In this document: positions 4,384 through 40,243 of the stretch, piece after piece
Numbering within the stretch: the stretch's first letter is position 1
How the letters are laid out: every line of letters starts with the position of its first letter
Source: an uncultured Candidatus Saccharibacteria bacterium
GTDB lineage: Bacteria > Patescibacteriota > CALEFQ01 > G965231055
Direction: 5' to 3'
DNA: 46,333 nt
Assembly: GCA_965231055.1 (NCBI GenBank)
Contig: OZ246411.1
Span: forward strand, 1-46,333
Position numbers and translations under genes: made by a program
Notes under the pieces: model-generated
Seen by the model: the letters and a program-made list of their open reading frames with translations, nothing else
What the model was told of the DNA's origin: nothing
Database searches by the model: none

Positions 4384-4777
4384 GGGGATGACAGGCATCG
4401 ATAGTTGTGGAGCGATTGGTATTCGTCATTAAGAGCTATAAGTCACTCTTGTAAAAAACTGACTTATAATCATAAGTGCAAAATCACTTGTAAGCAAAGT
4501 CAAGGCTGCTTTTAGCATGCCGGTCTTTGCACCTGTTGTTGCCTAAAAACCAACAACCATCGCCCCTGCTTGGCTAGAAGCGGGATCGGCGGTGTCATTA
4601 CCTAGCCTCTATCTCGAGCATTTCTTCCGGCTCTTGATGAAACTTTTAGGAAGATTGAAATTTGCATGTTTAGTTCCCTTTTAGTGCAAGTTTTGAAAAA
4701 ACAAAGGGTTCTAGATGACGTAAAAGTACCACATCAAACCCTTCTAGACGGGGGTTCAATTCCCCCCATCTCCACCA
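4384..4777 (+). ncRNA. ssrA: tmRNA (SsrA), one-piece, with CCA encoded
   Basis: The 5' GGGGATG pairs with the 3' CATCTCC-ACCA acceptor stem, including the G3:U wobble. The T-arm is GGGGG-TTCAATT-CCCCC. The candidate tag ORF runs from GCA at 4478 to TAA at 4544-4546 and encodes AKSLVSKVKAAFSMPVFAPVVA. The stop codon sits in the loop of the hairpin GTTGTTG-cctaaaaac-CAACAAC. The gene is adjacent to smpB. Confidence 0.9.
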
Positions 4778-4853: not shown

Positions 4854-7800
4854 TTATCTAGTCTTTTTCATGCGAACAACAATAAAACCAATCGACCCAG
4901 CTAAAACGATAGAAATAATGACGAAAACCCAGATCCAATTCTTTCTGGTTGCAGAATTGTCCAATCCAGAATCTAAAACGTCAGAGCTATGAGATGATGA
5001 TTTCAAATCAACCCCAGCTCCATCAGAATCTATGTTTTCTTGCTCATCCCCCAAACTTGCCGAAAAATAATCTCTTGAATTATTAGAATTATTCGAGTGG
5101 TAATTTTCTTCACTTGAATCATCGATAGTATCCTCATGATCTTCTTCCATGGAAGAAGTAGTGGCATCTATAACTACCGGATCAGTTTCTACACCATCTC
5201 CGTTTCTATATCTCACTGAATAAGTGTATTCTGTACTATTTTTCAAACCATCATCCTGCCAAAAATTATCATTAATCCACCCCGAATTATTTCCATTAGT
5301 AGTATTCTCAAAATAGTATCCTGACAATCCATCGTCATCGTTTACAAATCTTTCTACTGATAGCAGAATATCATCTGAATCAATTGATGCAGAAAAATGA
5401 GTTGGACTTTCAACTAGAGTATAAACGGAATCAGACGTCTCGGAAGAATCGCCAAAACCCATATCGCTTCTATGCGCCTTTACCGAAACTGAATACTCTG
5501 TATTTGGTGAAAGATCTTCGTCAGTCCAAATTAAATTGGATCCCGAAGAGGATTTGGAATTTTGTGGATACAAATCACTTACACCCAAGGCTGCGCCTCC
5601 CCCATCATTATCATAATCAACACTATATGAGTCCTCTATTTCTGAATTATCAATCCATTTCCAAGTAATAGAGTTTGGAGAGTTTACAGTAGGGGTGTCG
5701 ATAGTGGGAGTATTTAAACTATTTGTACCCAATACCGTAAGGCTTACTGCATCCGAAGAAGATGATAGACCAGTAGAATCAGTGGCTGTAAAAACAACCT
5801 CCTCGGTACCAGTCCACTCTGCAGGCTGAGCGAAAGAAACACGATTATCACTATCAATTGTGACATCTATATACTCATTGTCATCTGTTGAGGCGGTGTA
5901 GGTTACAGCTTGATTTCTAGCTGGTATTGCTAGATTATTTTTTTCAATAAAGTAATCGTCTAAATCGAAAGATTCCAAATTATCATCCCCCTTTGACCAA
6001 CTTTGATCAAGAATCATTCCACCAGAATATAATAAATACGCGGCTCCTGCGCTAAAAACACCTTGCGGATCACTATAATCAGCACCAACAGCCACATCAT
6101 CCAGACCATCTCCATCTACATCAGAGAGGGAAGAAACCGATACCCCAAAGATGTCACCGCGACGTTCCCCTGTGTATCTTATTAACTCATTTCCACTACC
6201 AGAAGAAAGAATCGACACATAGCCCGAACCAAACTCTCCCCTAGCCCCAATCACAACATCATCCAAGCCATCATTGTCGATATCTGAGATTGAAGAGACG
6301 GACTCACCAAAACGATCCGCTGATTCCACTCCACTATACTGACGAATAAAATTTCCCGAGGAAGAATACAAATCTACAATCCCAACAGACACTAAGTTAT
6401 CCTCAACATCAGTGTAAGCAGGAGATGAAATAATTATGTCATCAAGCCCGTCACCATCTAGGTCTGTTATCGGAACAACGCTAGAACCAAAAGCGCCATT
6501 AGCGCCCGCTCCATCATAACGTTCAATTTGATTACCAGTTCCAGAAGAGAAAATAAAAGCTGATCCAGCGTAGGATACTCCGCCAGGGCTTGCCATATAG
6601 GCCCCAATTATAACGTCTTCCAAACCATCTCCATCTATATCTGAAATAGAAGAGACTGACGATCCTAAACCTTCCATTGCGCCACCGCTAAATTGTCTTA
6701 TAATATCACCGGAAGCTGAGGAATAAATATAAGCAGAGCCAGCATTGGAATTTGCAGAAGCAGCTCCTACTAGAATATCATCCAAGTCATCTCCATCAAT
6801 GTCTGAGATTGAACCAATTGCTTTACCGAAATTACTAAAAGCGCCCGCGGGACCGTCGTATCTTCTTATAAGCTCACCACTCCCAGATGAATACAGATAA
6901 ACAGAACCAGTATAATCTCCACCCATACTGGAATACTGGGAACCGATCAGAACATCGTCCAGACCATCTCCGTCTACATCTGAAATCGAAGAAACAGAGC
7001 CTCCAAAATAAATAGCACCAGCATCTCCCACATATTGCCGTAAAAGATCTCCCGTCTTAGAAGAATATATATATGCCTTATTAGAACCACTTTCTCCAAC
7101 TAGTATATCCTGAAATCCGTCACCATCTATATCTGATATAGAAGAGATCGCTGAACCAAATCTCCCCGAGGCAGTAGCTCCTTCATATTTTTTAAAACTA
7201 CCTGCTTCAGGAGCAGAATCGGAATCTAGGGGGTTGAAATTGTTTAACTCTTCGTATTCATCATCCCAACCATCATTGTCAGTGTCTGACTCATAGGGAT
7301 TTGTGTAATTTGTAAATAACTCGTCATAATCACTTACGCCATCATCGTCATAGTCTAGATCACCATCCTGGCTAATTCCCAGTGTGTCGATATTATTGGG
7401 AAGATTCAAGATAACAAAAGATCCTTGTTCGGGAGATGATATTACAGCGGGCTTACCAGAATTCTTAAAAGGCAGAATATTAAAATTATATATATCGTTT
7501 CCAAAAAAAGACCTGGCAGTTGCGGGCACTTGAGTTCCTGCATATAGGTTGTATCCACCAATATTATTTTCAGAATTGCTTCTGTCGATAGTGAAACTCT
7601 CTGTAGCTGTGGGTGTATATACGCCGGTACTTTCATATCCGAGAGTTGCTTGATTCTGAGTAGTATACCACCAAACATGATAATATATATTCGAAATCTC
7701 ATTGTTTTGAGAATAGGTTCCATTTTCGTCAAAAAAGAATTGTAACCATCCCCCGCAGTGCCTAGTCTCAGCAGAAACAGGAGCAGTTCTCGACAAAACC

Positions 7801-8414
7801 CCCAAATCGTCTCCCGATCCTGATGTATTATTGGCCTGATAATGCGTCTGCGCAGATGATCTTAGATAGTAGAGCCCATCGATATTGGTTTCTTCGTGTG
7901 AACTAAAAATCTGAAAATAGACACTGGATGTTGGACCATTTAGAACAGTATTCGCTGAGTTTTTTGTAGTAACTATAACTTGATAATTGTTTGCCAATGC
8001 GGAATTATTGACTATATTTCCTAAAACAATTGTCTTTAAGCCGGCAGCAGAAGATGTTCCAGAAGTTCTAGTTATCGTAATCACCTGTCCAGCCACTGTT
8101 AATGTTTTATTGCCATCAAATCCCGTCCAAGAACCAAAAGAAGCTCCGGACACATTGAATCCTGCAGGAAACTCAAGGGTCACCTTTCCCGTATTGGCAA
8201 TACTAGCTGTCGTCTTGAAAGTTATTGTATAACTTGATGCATTACCAGCAGTAACATCCGAGGGAGTGGCGGTTACTCGCGTAAGAGCTGCGGCCGCCGA
8301 AACATGCAATGGAAAAACAAAAAAACCAATATTATAAAAAACTATTGAAAAAATAATAATCAAAGAAAAAAACTTTTTGATTTTAGTTTTCGTTCTCAAA
8401 GATTTTAGCATCAC
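4854..8414 (-). CDS. Large cell-surface protein: N-terminal signal/anchor, seven FG-GAP repeats (beta-propeller), acidic Ca-binding-like segment, FN3-like modules and a C-terminal TM anchor
   Basis: A 1186-aa ORF. Seven copies of the motif FGxSVSSISDIDGDGLDDVxIGA lie at aa 418-780 (about nt 6015-7202). There is a DxDxDG-rich stretch (DGDLDYDDDGVSDYDE..DTDNDGWDDEYE). FN3-like segments follow (..NSITWKWIDNS.., ..TEYSVSVKAH.., ..STEYTYSVRYRNG). The C-terminal helix is WIWVFVIISIVLAGSIGFIVV. Confidence 0.8.
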   Translation of the reverse strand: MMLKSLRTKTKIKKFFSLIIIFSIVFYNIGFFVFPLHVSAAAALTRVTATPSDVTAGNASSYTITFKTTASIANTGKVTLEFPAGFNVSGASFGSWTGFDGNKTLTVAGQVITITRTSGTSSAAGLKTIVLGNIVNNSALANNYQVIVTTKNSANTVLNGPTSSVYFQIFSSHEETNIDGLYYLRSSAQTHYQANNTSGSGDDLGVLSRTAPVSAETRHCGGWLQFFFDENGTYSQNNEISNIYYHVWWYTTQNQATLGYESTGVYTPTATESFTIDRSNSENNIGGYNLYAGTQVPATARSFFGNDIYNFNILPFKNSGKPAVISSPEQGSFVILNLPNNIDTLGISQDGDLDYDDDGVSDYDELFTNYTNPYESDTDNDGWDDEYEELNNFNPLDSDSAPEAGSFKKYEGATASGRFGSAISSISDIDGDGFQDILVGESGSNKAYIYSSKTGDLLRQYVGDAGAIYFGGSVSSISDVDGDGLDDVLIGSQYSSMGGDYTGSVYLYSSGSGELIRRYDGPAGAFSNFGKAIGSISDIDGDDLDDILVGAASANSNAGSAYIYSSASGDIIRQFSGGAMEGLGSSVSSISDIDGDGLEDVIIGAYMASPGGVSYAGSAFIFSSGTGNQIERYDGAGANGAFGSSVVPITDLDGDGLDDIIISSPAYTDVEDNLVSVGIVDLYSSSGNFIRQYSGVESADRFGESVSSISDIDNDGLDDVVIGARGEFGSGYVSILSSGSGNELIRYTGERRGDIFGVSVSSLSDVDGDGLDDVAVGADYSDPQGVFSAGAAYLLYSGGMILDQSWSKGDDNLESFDLDDYFIEKNNLAIPARNQAVTYTASTDDNEYIDVTIDSDNRVSFAQPAEWTGTEEVVFTATDSTGLSSSSDAVSLTVLGTNSLNTPTIDTPTVNSPNSITWKWIDNSEIEDSYSVDYDNDGGGAALGVSDLYPQNSKSSSGSNLIWTDEDLSPNTEYSVSVKAHRSDMGFGDSSETSDSVYTLVESPTHFSASIDSDDILLSVERFVNDDDGLSGYYFENTTNGNNSGWINDNFWQDDGLKNSTEYTYSVRYRNGDGVETDPVVIDATTSSMEEDHEDTIDDSSEENYHSNNSNNSRDYFSASLGDEQENIDSDGAGVDLKSSSHSSDVLDSGLDNSATRKNWIWVFVIISIVLAGSIGFIVVRMKKTR

Positions 8415-18802: not shown

Positions 18803-21661
18803 ATGCAAAAATACGAACCCAAAATAGTTGAGGAAAAGTGGCAAAAAATCTGGGAAGAACAAAAGGCTTTTAAAGCCAACGACAAAGACAAAAAACCCAA
18901 ATACTATGCCTTGGTTGAATTTCCTTATCCCTCAGGGGAAGGACTTCACTGTGGTCACCCAAGATCCTATACAGCGCTTGATGTAGTAGCAAGAAAAAGA
19001 CGCATGCAAGGCTACAATGTTTTGTATCCCATGGGATTTGACGCGTTTGGCCTTCCTGCGGAAAACTACGCTATAAAAACCAAATCCAACCCCAAGGATG
19101 TAGTAAAAAAGAATATAGAAAATTTTACCCGCCAGATGAAATCTATAGGATTTTCTTTTGATTGGGATAGAGTCGTAAATACTACTGAACCAGAATATTA
19201 TAAATGGACTCAGTGGATCTTTTTGAAACTTTTTGAAAAAGGACTCGCTTACCAAAAACAAATGCCAATCAATTGGTGCCCAAAATGCAAAATAGGTTTA
19301 GCCAACGAAGAAGCAATTGATGGTAAATGCGAAAGATGCGGAACAGAAGTAGAAAAAAAGGACATGAAACAATGGATGCTTGCTATCACCAAGTACGCCG
19401 ATAGGCTTATTGATGATCTAGATGATTTGGATTATCTAGAAAAAATAAAACTGCAACAAAAAAACTGGATCGGACGAAGTGAGGGCACTATCGCCAAATT
19501 CAAAATCAAAACACAGCAATCAGCCGAAAGCCAAAAGCCAAAAGCCAAAAGCTCATTAATTGAAATTTTTACCACAAGAATAGACACGATTTTTGGAGTT
19601 ACCTATATCGTACTAGCTCCCGAACATGAACTAGTAAGACAAATCACGACACCTGAACACCAAAAAGAAGTAGATAAATATATCAAGCAGACGAATTCCA
19701 AAACAGATATCCAAAGGAAGGATCTTGAAAAAGAAAAAACCGGAGTATTTACCGGCAGCTATGCAATAAACCCGGTTAACAACAAAGAGGTGCCAATTTG
19801 GATCGCTGACTATGTCGTAGCATCATACGGATCCGGAGCAGTAATGGCAGTCCCAGCGCATGATGAACGCGATTATGCATTCGCTAAAAAATATAATTTA
19901 CCAATAGAATACGTTATAGAACCAGTCACTGGAAAACCAAGAGAAAAAGAAGAATACAGAAAAAGCGTTGTAGTTGTCGTAGAAAATCCAAAGAATGGCA
20001 AGGTGCTTACTTTTAATTGGGGCAAAGAGCTTGGAGGATATTTAATCTTGGGAGGAGGAATGGAAACAAATGAAGACCCAATAGAAGCTGCTAAAAGAGA
20101 AATACTTGAGGAAACTGGATATAAAAATGTAGAATTCGTAGCGAAATCAGAAACTATTCACCATCACTACAGAGCGCACTCAAAAAATGTGAATAGATAT
20201 ATTGATGCGGTAGGCCTACACTTCAGACTGAAAGATGAATCCAAAGAAAATACAAAGCTCGAGGATAGCGAAAAAGGAAAATTCAAACTTGAATGGAAGG
20301 AAAAAAATGAAGTAGCTAATCTCATAGAAGACGAACTACATCATTATGTTTTTGCTAGATTTATTCTTGGAAACGCATTTACTGGGGATGGCATTTTGAT
20401 AGGTTCCGAAGATTTTTCAGGAATGGATTCCGAAAAAGCAAGAGAAGAAATTACAAAATGGTTAAATAAAAAGAATTTAGGAGATAAAAAAGTAGAATAC
20501 AGCCTGAGAGACTGGGTATTTTCAAGACAACACTATTGGGGAGAGCCAATACCAATAATACATTGTAAGAAATGTGGAATAGTGCCAGTGCCAGAAAAAG
20601 AACTTCCAATAGAACTTCCTTTTGTAGAGAATTACGAGCCAACAAACACCGGAGAATCCCCTCTTGCCAAAATCACAGACTGGGTAAATACTACTTGCCC
20701 GAAATGTGGCGCAAAGGCAAAAAGAGAAACAGACACAATGCCAAACTGGGCTGGATCAAGCTGGTATTTCATAAGATACATAGATCCCAAAAACGACAAA
20801 GAAATAGCCGACAAAAAGAAACTAAAACATTGGCTCCCTATTGACTGGTACAATGGCGGAATGGAACACACCACGCTACACCTTCTCTACTCTAGATTTT
20901 GGTACAAATTTCTCTATGATATAGGGGTTGTTCCCACTAAGGAACCTTATCAGAAGCGAACCTCTCATGGGATGATACTCGCAGAAGATGGACAAAAAAT
21001 GTCCAAATCCAGGGGTAATGTTATAAATCCTGACGACATAATTGAGAAGTTTGGAGCAGACACGCTCAGGATGTATGAAATGTTTATGGGACCCTTTTCC
21101 GAAGCGGTGGCTTGGAATACTGATAGTATTAAAGGGGTTAGAAAATTCTTGGATAGAGTTTGGAATAATTTTTCCGAATTACCAGGCAAAGAATCTGATA
21201 AAGAAATAGAGGTAAAACTACACCAAACAATAAAGAAAATCACAGAAGACATAGAGGCAATGCGATTCAATACTTGCATAAGCGCGTTAATGGAATTGCT
21301 AAATTTCATAGAAAACAAACCCACAACCAAAGAACAAGCCGAAATCTTCACCAAACTTCTATATCCATTTGCGCCACACATATCAGAAGAGCTATGGGAA
21401 AAACTTGGGCACACGCAAACAATCACCAATGAAGCTTGGCCAATTTTTGATGAATCAAAAATCAAAACCTCAACGGTCAAAATTGGAGTTCAGATCATGG
21501 GTAAAGTAAGGGGAACAATAGAGCTTTCTCAAGAAGCAACAGAAAAAGAGGCAGTAAAACTTGCAAAAGAAAATCCCAACATACAAAAACACCTCAGAGA
21601 TAAAAAAATTATCAAAACTATTTACGTTCCAGGAAAAATTCTAAACTTTGTGGCCAAATAA
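18803..21661 (+). CDS. leuS: Leucine--tRNA ligase with an in-frame Nudix-domain insertion
   Basis: A 952-aa ORF with HIGH as HCGHPRS and KMSKS as QKMSKSRGN. The CP1 editing motifs TTRIDTIFG and GSGAVMAVPAHDERD are present. A C-terminal domain is present. An extra segment at aa 378-525 carries the Nudix box GGMETNEDPIEAAKREILEETGY. Confidence 0.95.
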   Translation: MQKYEPKIVEEKWQKIWEEQKAFKANDKDKKPKYYALVEFPYPSGEGLHCGHPRSYTALDVVARKRRMQGYNVLYPMGFDAFGLPAENYAIKTKSNPKDVVKKNIENFTRQMKSIGFSFDWDRVVNTTEPEYYKWTQWIFLKLFEKGLAYQKQMPINWCPKCKIGLANEEAIDGKCERCGTEVEKKDMKQWMLAITKYADRLIDDLDDLDYLEKIKLQQKNWIGRSEGTIAKFKIKTQQSAESQKPKAKSSLIEIFTTRIDTIFGVTYIVLAPEHELVRQITTPEHQKEVDKYIKQTNSKTDIQRKDLEKEKTGVFTGSYAINPVNNKEVPIWIADYVVASYGSGAVMAVPAHDERDYAFAKKYNLPIEYVIEPVTGKPREKEEYRKSVVVVVENPKNGKVLTFNWGKELGGYLILGGGMETNEDPIEAAKREILEETGYKNVEFVAKSETIHHHYRAHSKNVNRYIDAVGLHFRLKDESKENTKLEDSEKGKFKLEWKEKNEVANLIEDELHHYVFARFILGNAFTGDGILIGSEDFSGMDSEKAREEITKWLNKKNLGDKKVEYSLRDWVFSRQHYWGEPIPIIHCKKCGIVPVPEKELPIELPFVENYEPTNTGESPLAKITDWVNTTCPKCGAKAKRETDTMPNWAGSSWYFIRYIDPKNDKEIADKKKLKHWLPIDWYNGGMEHTTLHLLYSRFWYKFLYDIGVVPTKEPYQKRTSHGMILAEDGQKMSKSRGNVINPDDIIEKFGADTLRMYEMFMGPFSEAVAWNTDSIKGVRKFLDRVWNNFSELPGKESDKEIEVKLHQTIKKITEDIEAMRFNTCISALMELLNFIENKPTTKEQAEIFTKLLYPFAPHISEELWEKLGHTQTITNEAWPIFDESKIKTSTVKIGVQIMGKVRGTIELSQEATEKEAVKLAKENPNIQKHLRDKKIIKTIYVPGKILNFVAK

Positions 21662-37039: not shown

Positions 37040-40000
37040 TTAAATAAGATCATCTAGCGCGGATGTGGTTTGCCATTTTTTATCCAATCCTCTATTTTTC
37101 TTTCTTGAGAATGCATAGATTAGAGCGGGTATGACAAACAGTGTTCCAAGTGATGAAAATATTAATCCTGAAATCAAAGCAGTTCCGAGCCCAGTCCAGA
37201 AAGGATCATATATCGCCAAGGGTATAATACCGACAATCGTAGTAAGCGTAGTTGAAAGAATTGGTTTTAATCTACTCCTACCAGTTTCGGAAAGAGATTG
37301 TGCCAACGAAAATTCTGGATTGAGCTTTCGTATTTTGTTGAAAGAATCTATATAGACGATTGCATTGTTCACCACAATTCCCACAAGTGCAATTACTCCG
37401 AGTCCTGACACCATATCTAGTGTGCTACCAACAGCGAATAGCGAAGGGAAAACTCCAATAAGTCCAAATGGAATCGTAAGCATGATGACAAATGGCTGAC
37501 CATAGCTATTGAACTGATAAACCAAAACTAGATATACCAATATCAAGGCGATAGTAAATACCACTTGAAGATTACTCGAAGATTCCATAACGGAAGCATA
37601 TTCTCCACCGTATTTTACATCTTTCAATTCCAGACCAAATTCATTTAGCTTGTCTTCGCTGAGATAATTTTTTATTTCAGTTTCTAGAGCTGGTCCGTCT
37701 CCATCCTTATCCATTTTAATACTAATAGCAGAGATTCTTTCCTTTCCCAATCTGGAAATAGAATTGAGTTTTTCAACTTCTTTTACCGCAGCTACACTTC
37801 CAATGTTGGCAGAAGATACGCCAGAAGAACTTGATAAAGAAACATTTTTCAAATCATCTAGATCTTCCCTGGCTTCTTGGTTGTATTTGACTACCAGTTT
37901 ATCTGAAACACCGTCATCTCTGACAACTACTTTTCCAGCTTCGGATTCTGAGAAAACTGAATTAATAGACATGGAGCCGAAAAGCACATTGCTCTGCAAT
38001 TGGGCAAGCTTAGTGCTATCAAAATCCACCGAAACTGCAGAAAGCATCAGATCTTTTGGTCCATTTGAAATTCTTTCTATACCATCTTTATCCTTCACGA
38101 AGTTTTCAATATCATCTACGAGTTTGGCTGTTTTTTCGGTGTCGGAAGAAGCAAATTCAACCACTACATCAAACTCACTTGAAGGAGGTCCATAAGACTG
38201 AGGACTCACTGCTATTACTCTTTCGTCAATTCTAAATTTTTCCAGTTCATCATCGAGCATGTCAGAGATATCTTGCGCCGTAAGATCCGAATCTCTGTCT
38301 TTTGGTTCTTCAATAAACACCATGAAGCTTCCTTCCCAGAAGAAGAAACTTTCGAAATGAGGAATCGCTACAATTTTTTCTCCTATTTCATTATAAAGCT
38401 CTTTCTTTTCTGACAAAGGAGTTCCTGTAGGAAATTTCACAGACACATTGAGCTGCTCCGCATCGCTCGTTGGAAATTGAGAAAATGGAAGCTTTGGAAG
38501 AAAATAACCAAAGCTCACAACGAGCAGCACAACAGGAATCACGATAGTCAAGACCAGATTTTTCTTTTTTGAAAATACTTTCCTGATTGCTGAATAATAT
38601 TTATCAACCAATTTATCAATTCCTTTCTGAGCATAAAAAGCGAATACCGGAACAAAAAGTATTTTTTCTATCTTTTTGAACTTTTTCTCTTTTCGCTCAC
38701 CGCTACCCAAGATCCACTGACCGAAAAGTGGAGTAATACTTATCGCCAAGAAATAGGAGGCAACAAGCATAATAATAAGAATAATTGGAATATACTTAAA
38801 GAATTCTCCCATAATTCCTCCCATCATCGTGTAAGGAATCAATGCAATAATAGTAGTGACAGTTGCCGATAATATCGCTGGTGCGTAATCCTTTACGGAC
38901 TTAAGCGCAGCCGTTTTCTTATCCATTCCCCTTTTGAGATTATCAAGCATTCCAGATGAAATCACTATGGCATTGTCTACAAGCATACCAAGAGAAAGTA
39001 TCATCGCAAAAAGAGTAAGAATATTTAGAGTGTATCCAATCAAAGGCATCACGAACCAAGTTATAAGAAACGAGATAGGTAAAATTATTGAAACTAGTAT
39101 TCCAGCTCTCAAACTGACGAAGAACAATAGCACAACCAAAATAATTACAAGTCCAACTAGCCCATTGTCACTCAAATCTTTTATCAAGCTTCTAACATAT
39201 GGCGAGGTATCGTAAACCAAATTGAAATCTATATCTTCGGTGATAACTTTTTTATCATAGATTTTTTCTACAGCCTCCTTAACCGAATCAGAAACTCTCA
39301 AAACATCTCCATCGCCTTTTTTAGTAACTAAGATATATAGAGATTCTTTGGTAACTGCATCTCCATTTTCGTCTATAAATCCTGCCAAGGTAAAACCCTC
39401 TTCCGATGGAGCTCTTTTTACCTCTGCAAAATCTCCAAGCTTCATTGGCCCAAAAGAAATATTCTTTATATCTTCTATGCTACCAATCTCGCTTTCTATA
39501 ACTATAGCCTTTTCTTTTCCATCTTCACTTGTCACAAATCCTCCAGGTAAACTAGAAGTGACTCCTTTCAAAACAGAAACCACGGCATCTTTTGATAGTC
39601 CTAGTGAATTTAATTTGGCATAATCCAAAATTACCTGAATCTCCATTTCCGCAGAAGGCACAACATCAACTGATTTTATTTCTGAAGAAGTAGTTTCGAG
39701 ATAACTCACAATAGCCGGAGTTTTTTCCAAAAGCTCTGTTTGTGAAAAATTATCGCTAGTCACAGCATAAGCCAAAGTTGGCCCAGTAATATCTATCTGG
39801 GTAACCGCTACATCCACATCGTCTGGCAATACCACTTTTGATGTTTGATCTTGGACCTCTGATACTTTTTTATCTAGATCCTTGAAATCACTAAGCTCTA
39901 TAAATATACTTCCAAAATTATTTGAAGCAGACGATCTAAGTGTTTTTATCCCCTCTACTTCTGAAATTCTATTTTCAAGAGGAATAATAACTTCTCTTTC

Positions 40001-40243
40001 TATATCTTCGGCATTAGCACCGGGATAAACCGCAGTAGCTATCAGCATGTTAGCAGGAATATCTGGAAAATCTTGTTTAGGAATATCTCTCACTCCCATA
40101 ATTCCAGCAACTATAACCGCTATCAAAAGCAATATAGTTATTTTGTATTTATCAATAAAAAACTTTGCCCAGTTTGAAAATCCGCTTGGTTTGAATGTTT
40201 TTTGAGATTGCATATTGTTGTTTTGTTTATGAATAAATGCCAC
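37040..40243 (-). CDS. RND-superfamily efflux permease (AcrB/AcrD/AcrF family)
   Basis: A 1067-aa ORF with the 12-TM two-fold repeat architecture, two large extracytoplasmic loops and typical TM4/TM10 regions. An alternative start is Met11 (40213). Confidence 0.85.
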   Translation of the reverse strand: MAFIHKQNNNMQSQKTFKPSGFSNWAKFFIDKYKITILLLIAVIVAGIMGVRDIPKQDFPDIPANMLIATAVYPGANAEDIEREVIIPLENRISEVEGIKTLRSSASNNFGSIFIELSDFKDLDKKVSEVQDQTSKVVLPDDVDVAVTQIDITGPTLAYAVTSDNFSQTELLEKTPAIVSYLETTSSEIKSVDVVPSAEMEIQVILDYAKLNSLGLSKDAVVSVLKGVTSSLPGGFVTSEDGKEKAIVIESEIGSIEDIKNISFGPMKLGDFAEVKRAPSEEGFTLAGFIDENGDAVTKESLYILVTKKGDGDVLRVSDSVKEAVEKIYDKKVITEDIDFNLVYDTSPYVRSLIKDLSDNGLVGLVIILVVLLFFVSLRAGILVSIILPISFLITWFVMPLIGYTLNILTLFAMILSLGMLVDNAIVISSGMLDNLKRGMDKKTAALKSVKDYAPAILSATVTTIIALIPYTMMGGIMGEFFKYIPIILIIMLVASYFLAISITPLFGQWILGSGERKEKKFKKIEKILFVPVFAFYAQKGIDKLVDKYYSAIRKVFSKKKNLVLTIVIPVVLLVVSFGYFLPKLPFSQFPTSDAEQLNVSVKFPTGTPLSEKKELYNEIGEKIVAIPHFESFFFWEGSFMVFIEEPKDRDSDLTAQDISDMLDDELEKFRIDERVIAVSPQSYGPPSSEFDVVVEFASSDTEKTAKLVDDIENFVKDKDGIERISNGPKDLMLSAVSVDFDSTKLAQLQSNVLFGSMSINSVFSESEAGKVVVRDDGVSDKLVVKYNQEAREDLDDLKNVSLSSSSGVSSANIGSVAAVKEVEKLNSISRLGKERISAISIKMDKDGDGPALETEIKNYLSEDKLNEFGLELKDVKYGGEYASVMESSSNLQVVFTIALILVYLVLVYQFNSYGQPFVIMLTIPFGLIGVFPSLFAVGSTLDMVSGLGVIALVGIVVNNAIVYIDSFNKIRKLNPEFSLAQSLSETGRSRLKPILSTTLTTIVGIIPLAIYDPFWTGLGTALISGLIFSSLGTLFVIPALIYAFSRKKNRGLDKKWQTTSALDDLI

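What the first reader, a model, noticed from the sequence alone, without database searches (positions are those of the whole stretch)
19934..20377. Nudix hydrolase domain inserted in-frame inside leucyl-tRNA synthetase
The LeuRS is otherwise complete. It has HCGH, the TTRIDT and GSGAVMAVPAHDERD editing motifs, KMSKS and the C-terminal domain. E. coli LeuRS, recalled from memory, has about 24 residues linking the end of the CP1 region (..KYGLNIKPVI..) to ..GVLFNSGEF... Here that link is about 150 residues.

The insert begins with a beta-strand-like KSVVVVVENPKNGKVLTF. It contains a perfect Nudix box, G-x5-E-x7-REUxEExGU, read as G418-GMETN-E-DPIEAAK-RE-I-L-EE-T-G-Y440 (nt 20054-20122). The frame is continuous throughout the insert.

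Aminoacyl-tRNA synthetases are known to produce Ap4A-type dinucleotides, and Nudix enzymes commonly hydrolyse them. A fused Nudix module could therefore clear such by-products or act on an adenylate. That functional idea is inference. I am not aware of a described LeuRS with this architecture.
Basis: partly seen in the sequence, partly recalled or inferred. Interest (0 to 1): 0.75.

Follow-up and report, generated by a model that had tools for sequence, protein, structure and literature searches.

The report
Nudix hydrolase embedded in leucyl-tRNA synthetase
This bacterium's leucyl-tRNA synthetase carries a complete, apparently active Nudix pyrophosphatase inside its proofreading domain; the same design turns out to be shared by hundreds of uncultured small-genome bacteria, but we found no publication describing it.

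Summary
ORF 18803-21661 (+) encodes a 952-aa bacterial LeuRS (TIGR00396, 1049 bits). About 144 residues (aa 380-523, nt 19940-20371) replace a short surface loop: about 6 residues in T. thermophilus, 18 in E. coli, 13-20 in insert-free relatives. The insert matches PF00293 above its cut-off, has a perfect Nudix box (G418-Y440) and is predicted as a Nudix fold (pLDDT 94).

It is not an assembly chimera and not unique. The same insert sits at the same site in 112 of the 120 best homologs. It is in-frame within LeuRS in 78 of 80 GTDB species-representative loci, mostly Patescibacteria. A large gut lineage labelled Bacilli also carries it. Catalytic glutamates are nearly invariant, and free-standing 164-aa homologs exist.

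The loop that sets Nudix substrate specificity carries the tyrosine typical of diadenosine-polyphosphate hydrolases. The weak best matches are RppH and Ap4A hydrolases. The substrate has not been tested.

Relatives carry extra Nudix, Ham1 or alpha/beta-hydrolase modules in the same editing domain. Eight literature searches found no description. Verdict: a real, widespread but undescribed LeuRS variant, with the proposed function inferred and not shown.

The parts
18803..21661 (+). leuS ORF, 952 aa plus stop: bacterial-type leucyl-tRNA synthetase carrying the insert
   Evidence: ORF list. TIGR00396 scores 1049 bits against a cut-off of 548. E = 6e-239 to T. thermophilus LeuRS 1h3n. AF2 model: pLDDT 90.6, pTM 0.82.
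18947..18958 (+). HIGH signature (HCGH, aa 49-52) of the class I synthetic site
   Evidence: Sequence position. H49, G51 and H52 are invariant in 96 homologs.
19460..19939 (+). CP1 editing domain, N-terminal part (aa 220-379), with the T-rich motif TTRIDT (nt 19571-19588) and AVPAHDERD (nt 19847-19873)
   Evidence: PF13603 matches aa 220-384, model positions 1-155 of 185. T257, T258, R259, T262, H353, D354, R356 and D357 are invariant.
19514..19552 (+). Disordered loop QQSAESQKPKAKS (aa 238-250). This is the second insertion hot spot of CP1 in relatives; it is empty in the window protein
   Evidence: pLDDT is below 50 at aa 244-248. Relatives carry an alpha/beta hydrolase, Ham1 or a second Nudix starting around their aa 243-253. 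That this corresponds to the window's aa 238-250 loop is inferred from PF13603 model positions; no direct alignment was made.
19940..20371 (+). Inserted Nudix hydrolase domain (aa 380-523)
   Evidence: The borders come from the gap in the alignments to T. thermophilus and E. coli LeuRS. PF00293 matches aa 385-507. The domain-only AF2 model has pLDDT 93.9. Foldseek matches Nudix structures at TM 0.65-0.71. The domain aligns along its full length with free-standing 164-aa Nudix proteins.
20054..20122 (+). Nudix box GX5EX7REUXEEXGU (G418-Y440); catalytic E433, E436 and E437
   Evidence: Sequence position. In 112 insert-bearing homologs E433, E436 and E437 are 100% conserved, G418 100%, and R432 95%.
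20159..20197 (+). Specificity loop (X-loop) and basic strand HHHYRAHSKNVNR (aa 453-465): Y456 at +16 from the box, K461 (99% conserved), R465 (92%)
   Evidence: The significance of the X-loop comes from PMC5389931.
20270..20296 (+). Conserved E490 (93%) and W498 (100%) of the Nudix domain. Both are also conserved in the free-standing homologs, so they are likely substrate-binding or catalytic residues (inference)
20372..20470 (+). CP1 editing domain, C-terminal part after the insert (aa 524-556): strand GILIGS and a helix
   Evidence: Aligns to T. thermophilus residues 375 onward. AF2 gives strand 530-532 and helix 543-556. G530 and S535 are invariant.
20996..21010 (+). KMSKS signature (aa 732-736). 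The leucine-specific domain that precedes it in E. coli and T. thermophilus is absent
21197..21547 (+). Anticodon-binding-type helical domain (aa 799-915)
   Evidence: PF08264, 80.3 bits.

Best explanation
What it is (confidence about 0.97): a complete Nudix pyrophosphohydrolase gene has been inserted into a surface loop of the CP1 editing domain of the housekeeping LeuRS. The loop lies between the strands IEYVIEPV and GILIGS. The same Nudix family also exists as free-standing proteins of about 164 aa in Patescibacteria. The LeuRS keeps all its aminoacylation and editing signatures, so it still charges and proofreads tRNA-Leu. The arrangement is inherited and conserved in many Patescibacteria and in a gut lineage labelled Bacilli.

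How it most likely works (inferred, confidence about 0.35-0.4): the embedded module is an autonomous, metal-dependent Nudix hydrolase of the ApnA-hydrolase/RppH functional class. It would cleave the polyphosphate bridge of dinucleoside polyphosphates such as Ap4A. Aminoacyl-tRNA synthetases make these when ATP attacks the enzyme-bound aminoacyl-adenylate. Because the hydrolase is tethered to the synthetase by short, confidently modelled linkers, it is produced 1:1 with a producer of these nucleotides. In a minimal genome that lacks dedicated regulation, this would keep ApnA from accumulating.

Shown: the architecture, the fold, conservation of catalytic residues, and the distribution. Inferred: catalytic activity, the substrate, and any coupling to LeuRS chemistry.
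For: Architecture:
- The ORF is uninterrupted, and the HMM and PDB alignments define the insert.
- The AF2 full-length model has pLDDT 90.6. Block-mean pLDDT is 89-97 across the insert and 93-96 at both junctions.
- The domain model is a Nudix fold, matching 2azw at TM 0.71, RppH at 0.67-0.69 and Aquifex Ap4A hydrolase at 0.67/0.76.

Real and selected:
- 112 of the 120 best homologs have the insert at the same site.
- 78 of 80 GTDB species loci have it in-frame between the LeuRS N- and C-terminal cores.
- 119 of 120 homologs in the Bacilli-labelled lineage carry PF00293.
- The insert is only 38% identical to the window on average, against 60% for the core, yet E433, E436, E437 and G418 are 100% conserved and K461 99%.

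Origin: free-standing 164-aa Nudix proteins align end to end with the insert and share its invariant residues.

Substrate class:
- Tyr lies at +15 to +18 from the box in 195 of 225 domains, and an aromatic residue in 224 of 225. The ADP-ribose proline and the NADH motif occur in none.
- Tyr in this loop is the published marker of ApnA hydrolases (PMC5389931).
- The profile hits lupin Ap4A hydrolase 1f3y at 2e-9 and Aquifex Ap4A hydrolase 3i7u at 2.4e-7.
- RppH models are the most consistent NCBIfam resemblance, matching 34 of 36 members. From memory, E. coli RppH/NudH also hydrolyses ApnA.

Analogy: fusions of a HIGH-motif nucleotidyltransferase with a Nudix domain that degrades its product are described for NMNAT-Nudix (PMC7824862).
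Against: - No biochemical data exist. All similarity to characterised Nudix enzymes is remote (15-23% identity). Every NCBIfam equivalog score is far below its cut-off (about 30 bits or less against 116 or more). The top PDB sequence hit (AvrM14) and several structural hits are RNA-decapping enzymes, not ApnA hydrolases.
- The X-loop tyrosine is a correlate, not a proof.
- LeuRS is not, from memory, among the strongest Ap4A producers.
- The Nudix sits on the editing domain, so no channelling from the synthetic site is evident.
- Sister proteins carry Ham1/ITPase or alpha/beta-hydrolase modules in the same domain. This fits a generic 'housekeeping enzyme hitch-hiking on LeuRS' explanation as well as an Ap4A-specific one.
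- About 6% of clusters in the Bacilli-labelled lineage have substitutions in catalytic box residues but keep the domain.
- Insert-free LeuRS nest next to the window protein in the tree. The module is therefore dispensable in some lineages.
Confidence: 0.4

Rival explanations
1. RNA 5'-end pyrophosphohydrolase or decapping enzyme (RppH-like). The embedded Nudix would remove pyrophosphate or an Np4/NAD-type cap from RNA 5' ends. The target could be mRNA, with LeuRS serving only as a carrier, or tRNA-Leu precursors or other RNAs brought near the editing domain when tRNA binds.
For: RppH models are the most consistent NCBIfam resemblance (34 of 36 members). E. coli RppH structures are among the best Foldseek matches (TM 0.67-0.69). 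The best PDB sequence hit is AvrM14 (1e-9, aligned over profile positions 31-150 of 160); Dcp2 and an oomycete decapping Nudix also appear. The decapping activity of AvrM14 is recalled from memory. The insert sits on the domain that engages the tRNA acceptor end (established LeuRS structural knowledge).
Against: All RppH scores are far below the equivalog cut-offs. No RNA-binding extension is evident. Free-standing homologs show no RNA-related gene neighbourhood. Mature tRNA has a 5' monophosphate, which leaves nothing for such an enzyme to remove. ApnA hydrolases and RppH overlap in fold and in substrates, so the same evidence fits the main explanation.
Confidence: 0.22
2. Nucleotide-pool sanitation enzyme with no mechanistic link to leucylation. 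The Nudix would be a MutT/NudB/NudI-like 'house-cleaning' NTP pyrophosphatase that was captured in a permissive loop of an essential, constitutively expressed gene. In streamlined genomes this guarantees expression and saves regulatory sequence.
For: The same CP1 domain in relatives hosts a Ham1/ITPase (P0070), which is another house-cleaning NTP pyrophosphatase. It also hosts extra Nudix copies (P0061, P0063, P0132, P0140, P0141, P0148) and alpha/beta hydrolases (P0012, P0045). NudB models match 26 of 36 members, and NudI and MutT match some. The family exists free-standing. The insert has been lost in a subgroup nested within the insert-bearing LeuRS. The insert evolves faster than the core: 38% against 60% identity, and 66% against 78% in the Bacilli-labelled lineage.
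Against: The X-loop Tyr points to ApnA-type rather than NTP-type substrates. MutT and NudB scores are far below their cut-offs. Repeated capture by LeuRS in particular, at conserved sites and in two distant lineages, suggests more than chance. A systematic check of whether other synthetases carry this domain was not made.
Confidence: 0.2
3. Mainly non-catalytic role. The Nudix fold would act as a structural, tRNA-contacting or ligand-sensing module that modulates the movement of the editing domain or LeuRS activity in response to a nucleotide. Some Nudix-fold proteins, such as NrtR-type regulators, work this way (from memory).
For: The linkers are short and confidently modelled (pLDDT 93-96 at both junctions). 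The domain is retained in about 6% of Bacilli-lineage clusters despite substitutions in catalytic box residues. The insert is placed in the mobile editing domain.
Against: The catalytic glutamates are 100% conserved in 112 diverse Patescibacteria-type members, and the strict box is present in 108 of 115 Bacilli-lineage clusters. The invariant residues are shared with the free-standing homologs, so they serve the Nudix function itself, not an interface with LeuRS. Insert-free relatives retain the same LeuRS signature motifs and domain set, so LeuRS does not appear to need the module.
Confidence: 0.08
4. Artefact: a chimeric assembly or a mis-joined contig created an apparent fusion.
For: None found. 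This was only an a priori possibility for metagenome-derived sequence.
Against: The same in-frame architecture occurs in hundreds of independent assemblies from different studies and habitats. There is no GC discontinuity at 19.9-20.4 kb: GC is 0.36-0.37 against 0.34-0.42 in the flanks. The frame is continuous. AF2 models the junctions with high confidence.
Confidence: 0.005

Closest known systems
Bacterial leucyl-tRNA synthetase (T. thermophilus 1H3N/2BYT; E. coli 4AQ7/4ARC)
   Same: It has the same domain order and signatures: HIGH, the Zn module, a CP1 editing domain with the T-rich motif and the conserved Asp, KMSKS, the anticodon-binding domain and the C-terminal domain. TIGR00396 scores 1049 bits, and E = 6e-239 to 1h3n.
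   Different: A 144-residue Nudix domain replaces a loop of 6-18 residues inside CP1. The leucine-specific domain is absent, as it is in the roughly 800-aa insert-free relatives.
Free-standing Patescibacteria Nudix proteins of about 164 aa (P0002-P0007; NCBI 'NUDIX domain-containing protein [Candidatus Parcubacteria bacterium]')
   Same: They align end to end with the insert at 25-38% identity to the window. They share an almost identical box (GGIEGEEDPVEAAKREILEETGYKNVEF) and the same invariant K and W residues.
   Different: They are independent genes with unrelated neighbours. Their function is uncharacterised, so they give no substrate information.
Nudix ApnA hydrolases and RppH/NudH (lupin 1F3Y, Aquifex 3I7U, human NUDT2 4IJX, E. 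coli RppH 4S2W)
   Same: They share the Nudix fold and box, a Tyr or other aromatic residue in the X-loop about 16-17 residues after the box, and basic residues on the following strand. They are the best sequence and structure matches among characterised enzymes.
   Different: Identity is only 15-23%, and scores are far below the family cut-offs. The known enzymes are free-standing, and none is embedded in a synthetase.
Other enzymes of the HIGH-motif nucleotidyltransferase class joined to an extra catalytic domain: NMNAT-Nudix (NadM-type) fusions, and IleRS with a GNAT domain (NCBIfam NF040702)
   Same: The principle is the same: an adenylate-forming HIGH-class enzyme is joined to a second catalytic domain. 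In NMNAT-Nudix the Nudix degrades the product of the adenylyltransferase (PMC7824862). The existence of ileS_w_GNAT is shown by its listing.
   Different: As far as I know those are terminal fusions. Here the Nudix is nested inside the editing domain. The enzyme is also different (LeuRS), and no functional coupling has been demonstrated.

Membership tests
Bacterial-type leucyl-tRNA synthetase (TIGR00396 leuS_bact) | Whole-protein HMM score above the curated equivalog cut-off | tested here: met
   1049 bits against a cut-off of 548.4.
Bacterial-type leucyl-tRNA synthetase (TIGR00396 leuS_bact) | Class I signatures HIGH and KMSKS | tested here: met
   HCGH at aa 49-52 and KMSKS at aa 732-736. 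Both are invariant or nearly invariant in 96 homologs.
Bacterial-type leucyl-tRNA synthetase (TIGR00396 leuS_bact) | CP1 editing domain with the T-rich motif and the conserved Asp | tested here: met
   PF13603 scores 215 bits. TTRIDT and AVPAHDERD are present, and T257, T258, R259, T262 and D354 are invariant.
Bacterial-type leucyl-tRNA synthetase (TIGR00396 leuS_bact) | Leucylation of tRNA-Leu and hydrolysis of mischarged tRNA | not testable with these tools
   This needs enzymology.
Nudix hydrolase superfamily (PF00293) | HMM score above Pfam's gathering cut-off | tested here: met
   44.7 bits in the whole protein and 49.4 bits for the insert alone, against a cut-off of 21.1.
Nudix hydrolase superfamily (PF00293) | Nudix box GX5EX7REUXEEXGU | tested here: met
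   G418-Y440 is a perfect match. The strict box was found in about 100 of 112 Patescibacteria-type members and in 108 of 115 Bacilli-lineage members.
Nudix hydrolase superfamily (PF00293) | Nudix alpha/beta/alpha fold | tested here: met
   The AF2 domain model has pLDDT 93.9. Foldseek probability is 1.00 to many Nudix structures, with TM up to 0.71-0.76.
Nudix hydrolase superfamily (PF00293) | Metal-dependent pyrophosphohydrolase activity | not testable with these tools
   This needs an assay. Conservation of E433, E436 and E437 is only indirect support.
Nudix diadenosine-polyphosphate (ApnA) hydrolases | Tyrosine in the X-loop about 16-18 residues downstream of the box (Dunn 1999, as cited in PMC5389931) | tested here: met
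   Y456 is at +16. Tyr lies at +15 to +18 in 195 of 225 family members.
Nudix diadenosine-polyphosphate (ApnA) hydrolases | Clear sequence or structure grouping with characterised ApnA hydrolases | tested here: inconclusive
   1f3y at 2e-9, aligned mainly over the box region; 3i7u at 2.4e-7, nearly full length, TM 0.67/0.76, 21% identity. The match is no better than to RppH, NudB or uncharacterised Nudix proteins.
RppH RNA pyrophosphohydrolase (NCBIfam PRK00714 models; TIGR02705 YtkD) | Score above the equivalog cut-off | tested here: not met
   Best score 29.7 bits against a cut-off of 116; YtkD 25 bits against 154.
MutT 8-oxo-dGTP diphosphatase (TIGR00586 / PRK10776) | Score above the equivalog cut-off | tested here: not met
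   14-16 bits against cut-offs of 98-148.
ADP-ribose and NADH Nudix diphosphatases | Proline in the X-loop (ADP-ribose enzymes) or the SQPWPFPQS motif (NADH enzymes) downstream of the box | tested here: not met
   0 of 225 domains have Pro at +14 to +17, and 0 of 225 have the NADH motif. The motifs are taken from PMC5389931.

The most novel reading that the evidence does not exclude
The CP1 editing domain of LeuRS in small-genome bacteria (Patescibacteria and a gut lineage labelled Bacilli) would be an evolved docking platform for nucleotide-pyrophosphatase modules that are mechanistically coupled to the synthetase. One enzyme would then both generate and destroy Ap4A/Np4N alarmones, or would remove Np4A-type caps from RNAs. 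This would tie translational quality control directly to alarmone or RNA-cap turnover. The extra Nudix, Ham1 and alpha/beta-hydrolase inserts in relatives would be elaborations of the same principle.
Probability: 0.15. Interest if true: 0.8.

Novelty: new variant of a known kind. Interest (0 to 1): 0.58.

Why it matters
Aminoacyl-tRNA synthetases are among the most conserved enzymes known. In bacteria they are rarely seen to gain whole new catalytic domains.

Here a second hydrolase that looks active is nested in the proofreading domain of an essential synthetase. It has been kept for a long evolutionary time in a large share of the uncultured Patescibacteria and in an abundant gut lineage labelled Bacilli.

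If the module degrades Ap4A-type dinucleotides or RNA 5' caps, it gives a concrete and testable link between synthetases and alarmone or cap metabolism. That link has long been discussed, mostly on the basis of side reactions seen in vitro.

If the module is simply a hitch-hiking housekeeping enzyme, it illustrates how minimal genomes pack functions into essential genes.

There is also a practical point. NCBI's pipeline names many of these proteins only 'class I tRNA ligase family protein'. The insert may be the reason they are not named leucine--tRNA ligase; this was not tested.

Tried and rejected
1. Homolog search with the insert alone. It returned only 7 proteins and suggested rarity. This was an artefact of the 5-residue word index on a fast-evolving segment. 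Full-length and exhaustive searches overturned it.

2. Genome scan with the 36-sequence insert alignment. It failed because the alignment was too diverse. A tighter 8-sequence alignment worked.

3. Chimeric assembly or recent foreign insertion. Rejected: there is no GC break, and hundreds of independent assemblies share the site.

4. Separate expression of the Nudix from an internal promoter. Promoter-like and terminator-like sites inside leuS are at or below the number expected from shuffles.

5. ADP-ribose or NADH pyrophosphatase. The X-loop motifs are absent in 225 of 225 domains.

6. Membership in RppH, MutT or NudB. All scores are far below the curated cut-offs.

7. Gene neighbourhoods of a free-standing homolog (L082) and of an insert-free LeuRS (L083). 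Neither gave a functional hint, and no Nudix gene lies next to the insert-free leuS.

8. Docking geometry. The structure tool gives no coordinates or PAE. The distance from the Nudix site to the synthetic site, the editing site or the tRNA ends could not be measured.

9. Literature. Eight full-text searches and three papers read gave no description of a LeuRS-Nudix architecture. The AvrM14 paper held in the library did not give its substrate.

10. P0128 (4135 aa), the top hit of the exhaustive search, looks like an unrelated giant protein: Pfam found no Nudix or LeuRS domain in it, and its best matched stretch covers only 31 query residues.

Full report

Yes. The window holds one uninterrupted ORF, 18803-21661 on the + strand, encoding 952 aa. 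It is a bacterial-type leucyl-tRNA synthetase. TIGR00396 scores 1049 bits against a cut-off of 548, and the E-value to T. thermophilus LeuRS 1h3n is 6e-239.

Pfam finds a NUDIX domain (PF00293) at aa 385-507. HCGH, TTRIDT, AVPAHDERD and KMSKS are all present.

**2. Borders and placement.**

- Against T. thermophilus LeuRS, window aa 1-379 align to Tt 1-368 and aa 524-729 align to Tt 375-581. About 144 residues therefore replace about 6.
- In a direct alignment, E. coli has 18 residues (LAADGSEPDLSQQALTEK) between the strands IKPVI and GVLFNS. Insert-free close relatives have 13-20 residues there. The window has 157 (E373-D529).
- The best PF13603 stretch stops at model position 155 of 185, and a second stretch is reported. 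A strand and a helix of the editing domain follow the insert. So the Nudix is nested inside CP1, not appended after it.
- The leucine-specific domain of E. coli and T. thermophilus is missing. It is equally missing in the roughly 800-aa insert-free relatives, so this is the normal short LeuRS type for these organisms.
- Base composition shows no break at the insert.
- Promoter-like and terminator-like sites inside the gene do not exceed the number expected from shuffles.

**3. Structure.**

- The AlphaFold2 model of the whole protein, built on 96 homologs, has mean pLDDT 90.6 and pTM 0.82. Block-mean pLDDT is 89-97 across the insert and 93-96 at both junctions.
- The insert modelled alone has pLDDT 93.9 and the strand-helix-strand pattern of a Nudix fold.
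- Foldseek against the PDB gives probability 1.00 to many Nudix enzymes. The best is an uncharacterised E. faecalis protein, 2azw (TM 0.71). Next come E. coli RppH (0.67-0.69), Aquifex Ap4A hydrolase 3i7u (0.67/0.76), NudB, the mycobacterial MutT1/Rv2985 ApnA hydrolase, human Ap4A hydrolase and an oomycete decapping effector. All are 15-23% identical.
I could not measure where the Nudix active site points relative to the synthetic site, the editing site or the tRNA.

**4. How widespread is it?**

A first search with the insert alone found only one other fused protein and six free-standing Nudix proteins of 161-164 aa. That suggested rarity, but it was a sensitivity artefact of the word index. 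The later searches show the following.

- Full-length search: about 105 of the 120 best homologs (940-1380 aa, 50-58% identical) carry PF00293. Source names include Patescibacteria group, Taylorbacteria and Uhrbacteria.
- My alignment shows 112 of 120 with an insert at the same site.
- The exhaustive search of 1.84 billion cluster representatives gave 369 representatives at E <= 0.001. Many are 940-1280 aa long with the match at about residue 370-560.
- A scan of GTDB species-representative genomes for REIxEETGY gave at least 241 confirmed loci among the first 600 pattern hits. Of the best 80, 78 have the Nudix in the same frame directly between the LeuRS N- and C-terminal cores. Only L073 and L076 are free-standing genes.
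- Labelled lineages include Saccharibacteria, Paceibacterota/Parcubacteria, Minisyncoccia, Uhr-, Magasanik-, Berkel- and Taylorbacteria.
- About 30 loci come from low-GC (0.25-0.34) animal-gut MAGs labelled Bacilli, Tenericutes, Mycoplasmatota or Erysipelotrichaceae. They form their own clades. Their LeuRS has a different, cysteine-free zinc-module sequence; that this form is typical of Firmicutes is from memory.
- A search with one of these proteins returned 120 of 120 hits of 919-1105 aa. Of these, 119 are flagged with PF00293, and some clusters hold up to 599 member sequences. Two are named by NCBI 'leucine--tRNA ligase [Bacilli bacterium]'.

A chimeric assembly is therefore excluded, and the architecture is common in public data. 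The window itself is most similar to Paceibacterota/Minisyncoccia proteins (L011 insert 71%, L008 core 58-59%). Its protein sits on a contig of up to 843,892 nt in the collection.

**5. Is the module under selection as an enzyme?**

- Across the 112 Patescibacteria-type members, the insert is on average 38% identical to the window, against 60% for the core. Even so, G418, E433, E436 and E437 are 100% conserved. K461 is 99%, W498 100%, G439 98%, Y440 96%, R432 95%, R386 94%, E490 93% and R465 92%.
- The same invariant residues occur in the free-standing 161-164-aa proteins, which align with the insert end to end. These residues therefore serve the Nudix function itself, not an interface with LeuRS. 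A whole gene of this family appears to have been captured.
- Two sequence subtypes of the insert exist. The window belongs to the 'HHHYFAxSKNVxR' type. The other type, 'AHKDENR', is closer to the free-standing proteins.
- Caveats. A small subgroup has the variant box GQ...RME...EE. In the Bacilli-labelled lineage, 7 of 115 clusters have substitutions in catalytic positions while keeping the domain. Insert-free LeuRS such as P0057, P0093 and P0111 nest beside the window protein in a neighbour-joining tree, which suggests secondary loss.

**6. What does it most likely do?**

Nudix enzymes cleave pyrophosphate linkages.

The published specificity determinants sit in the X-loop, about 17 residues after the box. 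Tyr marks ApnA hydrolases, Pro marks ADP-ribose diphosphatases, and SQPWPFPQS marks NADH diphosphatases (PMC5389931). The window has Y456 at +16. Of 225 LeuRS-embedded domains, 195 have Tyr at +15 to +18 and 224 have an aromatic residue there. None has the Pro or the NADH motif.

A profile of the insert family hits the following in the PDB:
- the flax-rust effector AvrM14 (1e-9; an mRNA-decapping Nudix, from memory);
- lupin Ap4A hydrolase (2e-9);
- 2azw;
- Aquifex Ap4A hydrolase;
- Dcp2, DIPP and NudB.

Against NCBIfam, RppH models are matched by 34 of 36 members and NudB by 26. All scores are about 30 bits or less, against cut-offs of 103 or more.

My best reading is an autonomous hydrolase of the ApnA-hydrolase/RppH class, acting on dinucleoside polyphosphates. 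Synthetases generate these from the aminoacyl-adenylate and ATP. The hydrolase would be made 1:1 with LeuRS. I put this at about 0.35-0.4.

The rivals are:
- an RppH-like RNA 5'-end enzyme (about 0.22);
- a generic nucleotide-sanitising enzyme hitch-hiking in a permissive loop (about 0.2);
- a mainly non-catalytic role (about 0.08).

The hitch-hiking view gains weight from sister proteins, in which the same CP1 domain carries other modules:
- a Ham1/ITPase (P0070);
- alpha/beta hydrolases (P0012, P0045);
- second or third Nudix domains (P0061, P0063, P0084, P0132, P0140, P0141, P0148);
- a duplicated editing domain (P0077).

Gene neighbourhoods of a free-standing homolog and of an insert-free leuS gave no hint. 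In the window, leuS stands alone on the + strand between rsmH and a gene for an unannotated 373-aa protein.

**7. Comparison with what is known.**

- The protein is a member of bacterial LeuRS, and the insert is a member of the Nudix superfamily. All features testable here are met.
- The insert is not a member of the curated RppH, MutT, NudB, ADP-ribose or NADH subfamilies (tested, not met).
- It shares the one sequence marker of ApnA hydrolases, but its grouping with them is inconclusive.
- The closest analogues in principle are HIGH-class nucleotidyltransferase-Nudix fusions, such as NMNAT-Nudix, where the Nudix degrades the product (PMC7824862). Another is IleRS with a GNAT domain, which has its own NCBIfam model (listed).
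- Eight full-text searches found no paper describing a LeuRS-Nudix architecture. The library lacks many subscription journals, so absence is not proof.

**8. Verdict.**

The domain is real and looks active, and the Ap4A idea is the best-supported guess but remains untested. The architecture is not a singular oddity. It is a widespread, conserved, automatically flagged but apparently undescribed variant of LeuRS. I rate it 'new variant of a known kind', with interest 0.58.

Noticed in passing
window 19514-19552 (aa 238-250); relatives P0045, P0063, P0070: A second insertion hot spot exists in the CP1 editing domain. In the window it is only a disordered Lys/Gln-rich loop (pLDDT below 50 at aa 244-248). 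At what appears to be the corresponding site (inferred from PF13603 model positions, not from a direct alignment), relatives carry an alpha/beta hydrolase (P0045 aa 244-366), a Ham1/ITPase (P0070 aa 243-398) or a second Nudix (P0063 aa 253-319).
   Followed up: partly
relatives P0132, P0140, P0141, P0148, P0061, P0084, P0012, P0077: Some LeuRS carry two or three Nudix domains. P0012 (1380 aa) has a Nudix plus a Ser_hydrolase domain after it and about 215 extra residues before CP1. P0077 has two tandem editing domains and no Nudix.
   Followed up: partly
L001 940-1752 (protein P0001): This is a complete 270-aa ORF flanked by unrelated genes, not a contig-end fragment. It consists of a degenerate C-terminal half of a CP1 editing domain (VTRPDLLFG; AHNQED in place of AHDERD), the Nudix domain (54% identical to the window insert) and the strand that follows it. 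It could be a free-standing CP1-Nudix protein or a gene remnant.
   Followed up: no
window 20987-21010 (aa 729-736): The leucine-specific domain that precedes KMSKS in E. coli and T. thermophilus LeuRS is absent. The sequence runs ...ILAEDGQKMSKS. The same is true of the insert-free relatives.
   Followed up: partly
L009-L060 subset (loci labelled Bacilli, Tenericutes or Mycoplasmatota); P0277-P0396: A large low-GC gut lineage labelled Bacilli has the same Nudix insert at the same site. Its LeuRS core, however, has a cysteine-free zinc module. This raises the possibility of transfer or recombination of the CP1-Nudix segment between Patescibacteria and this lineage. Some members, such as P0277 and L048, have KMGKR in place of KMSKS.
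   Followed up: partly
P0279, P0283, P0289, P0294, P0299, P0320, P0379: These clusters from the Bacilli-labelled lineage keep the Nudix domain but have substitutions in catalytic box residues (REVLAETGY, REIEEATGY, HEIKEETGY, RSIIEKTGY, RKIKEETGY). Activity may have been lost in some lineages.
   Followed up: partly
L002-L004, L015, L028, L043, L057, L064, L067, L074: These MAG records are labelled Gammaproteobacteria, Muribaculaceae, Methanosarcinales or Woesearchaeota, yet they carry LeuRS-Nudix genes that group with Patescibacteria or with the Bacilli-labelled lineage. The taxonomic labels of these records look unreliable.
   Followed up: no
homologs listed (for example P0013, P0016, P0044, P0071, P0080, P0100, P0125): NCBI names many insert-bearing LeuRS only 'class I tRNA ligase family protein', while insert-free relatives are named 'leucine--tRNA ligase'. 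The insert may be what prevents the specific name; this was not tested.
   Followed up: no
window 4384-4777 (+): A tmRNA gene (RF00023, 104 bits, full-length match) is the only Rfam hit in the window.
   Followed up: no
window 4854-8414 (-) and 37040-40243 (-): There is a large FG-GAP/fibronectin-type surface-protein candidate (1186 aa) and an AcrB-family transporter (1067 aa). The rest of the sampled context is ordinary: rsmH, a glycosyltransferase, BipA and a sulfatase-family protein.
   Followed up: no
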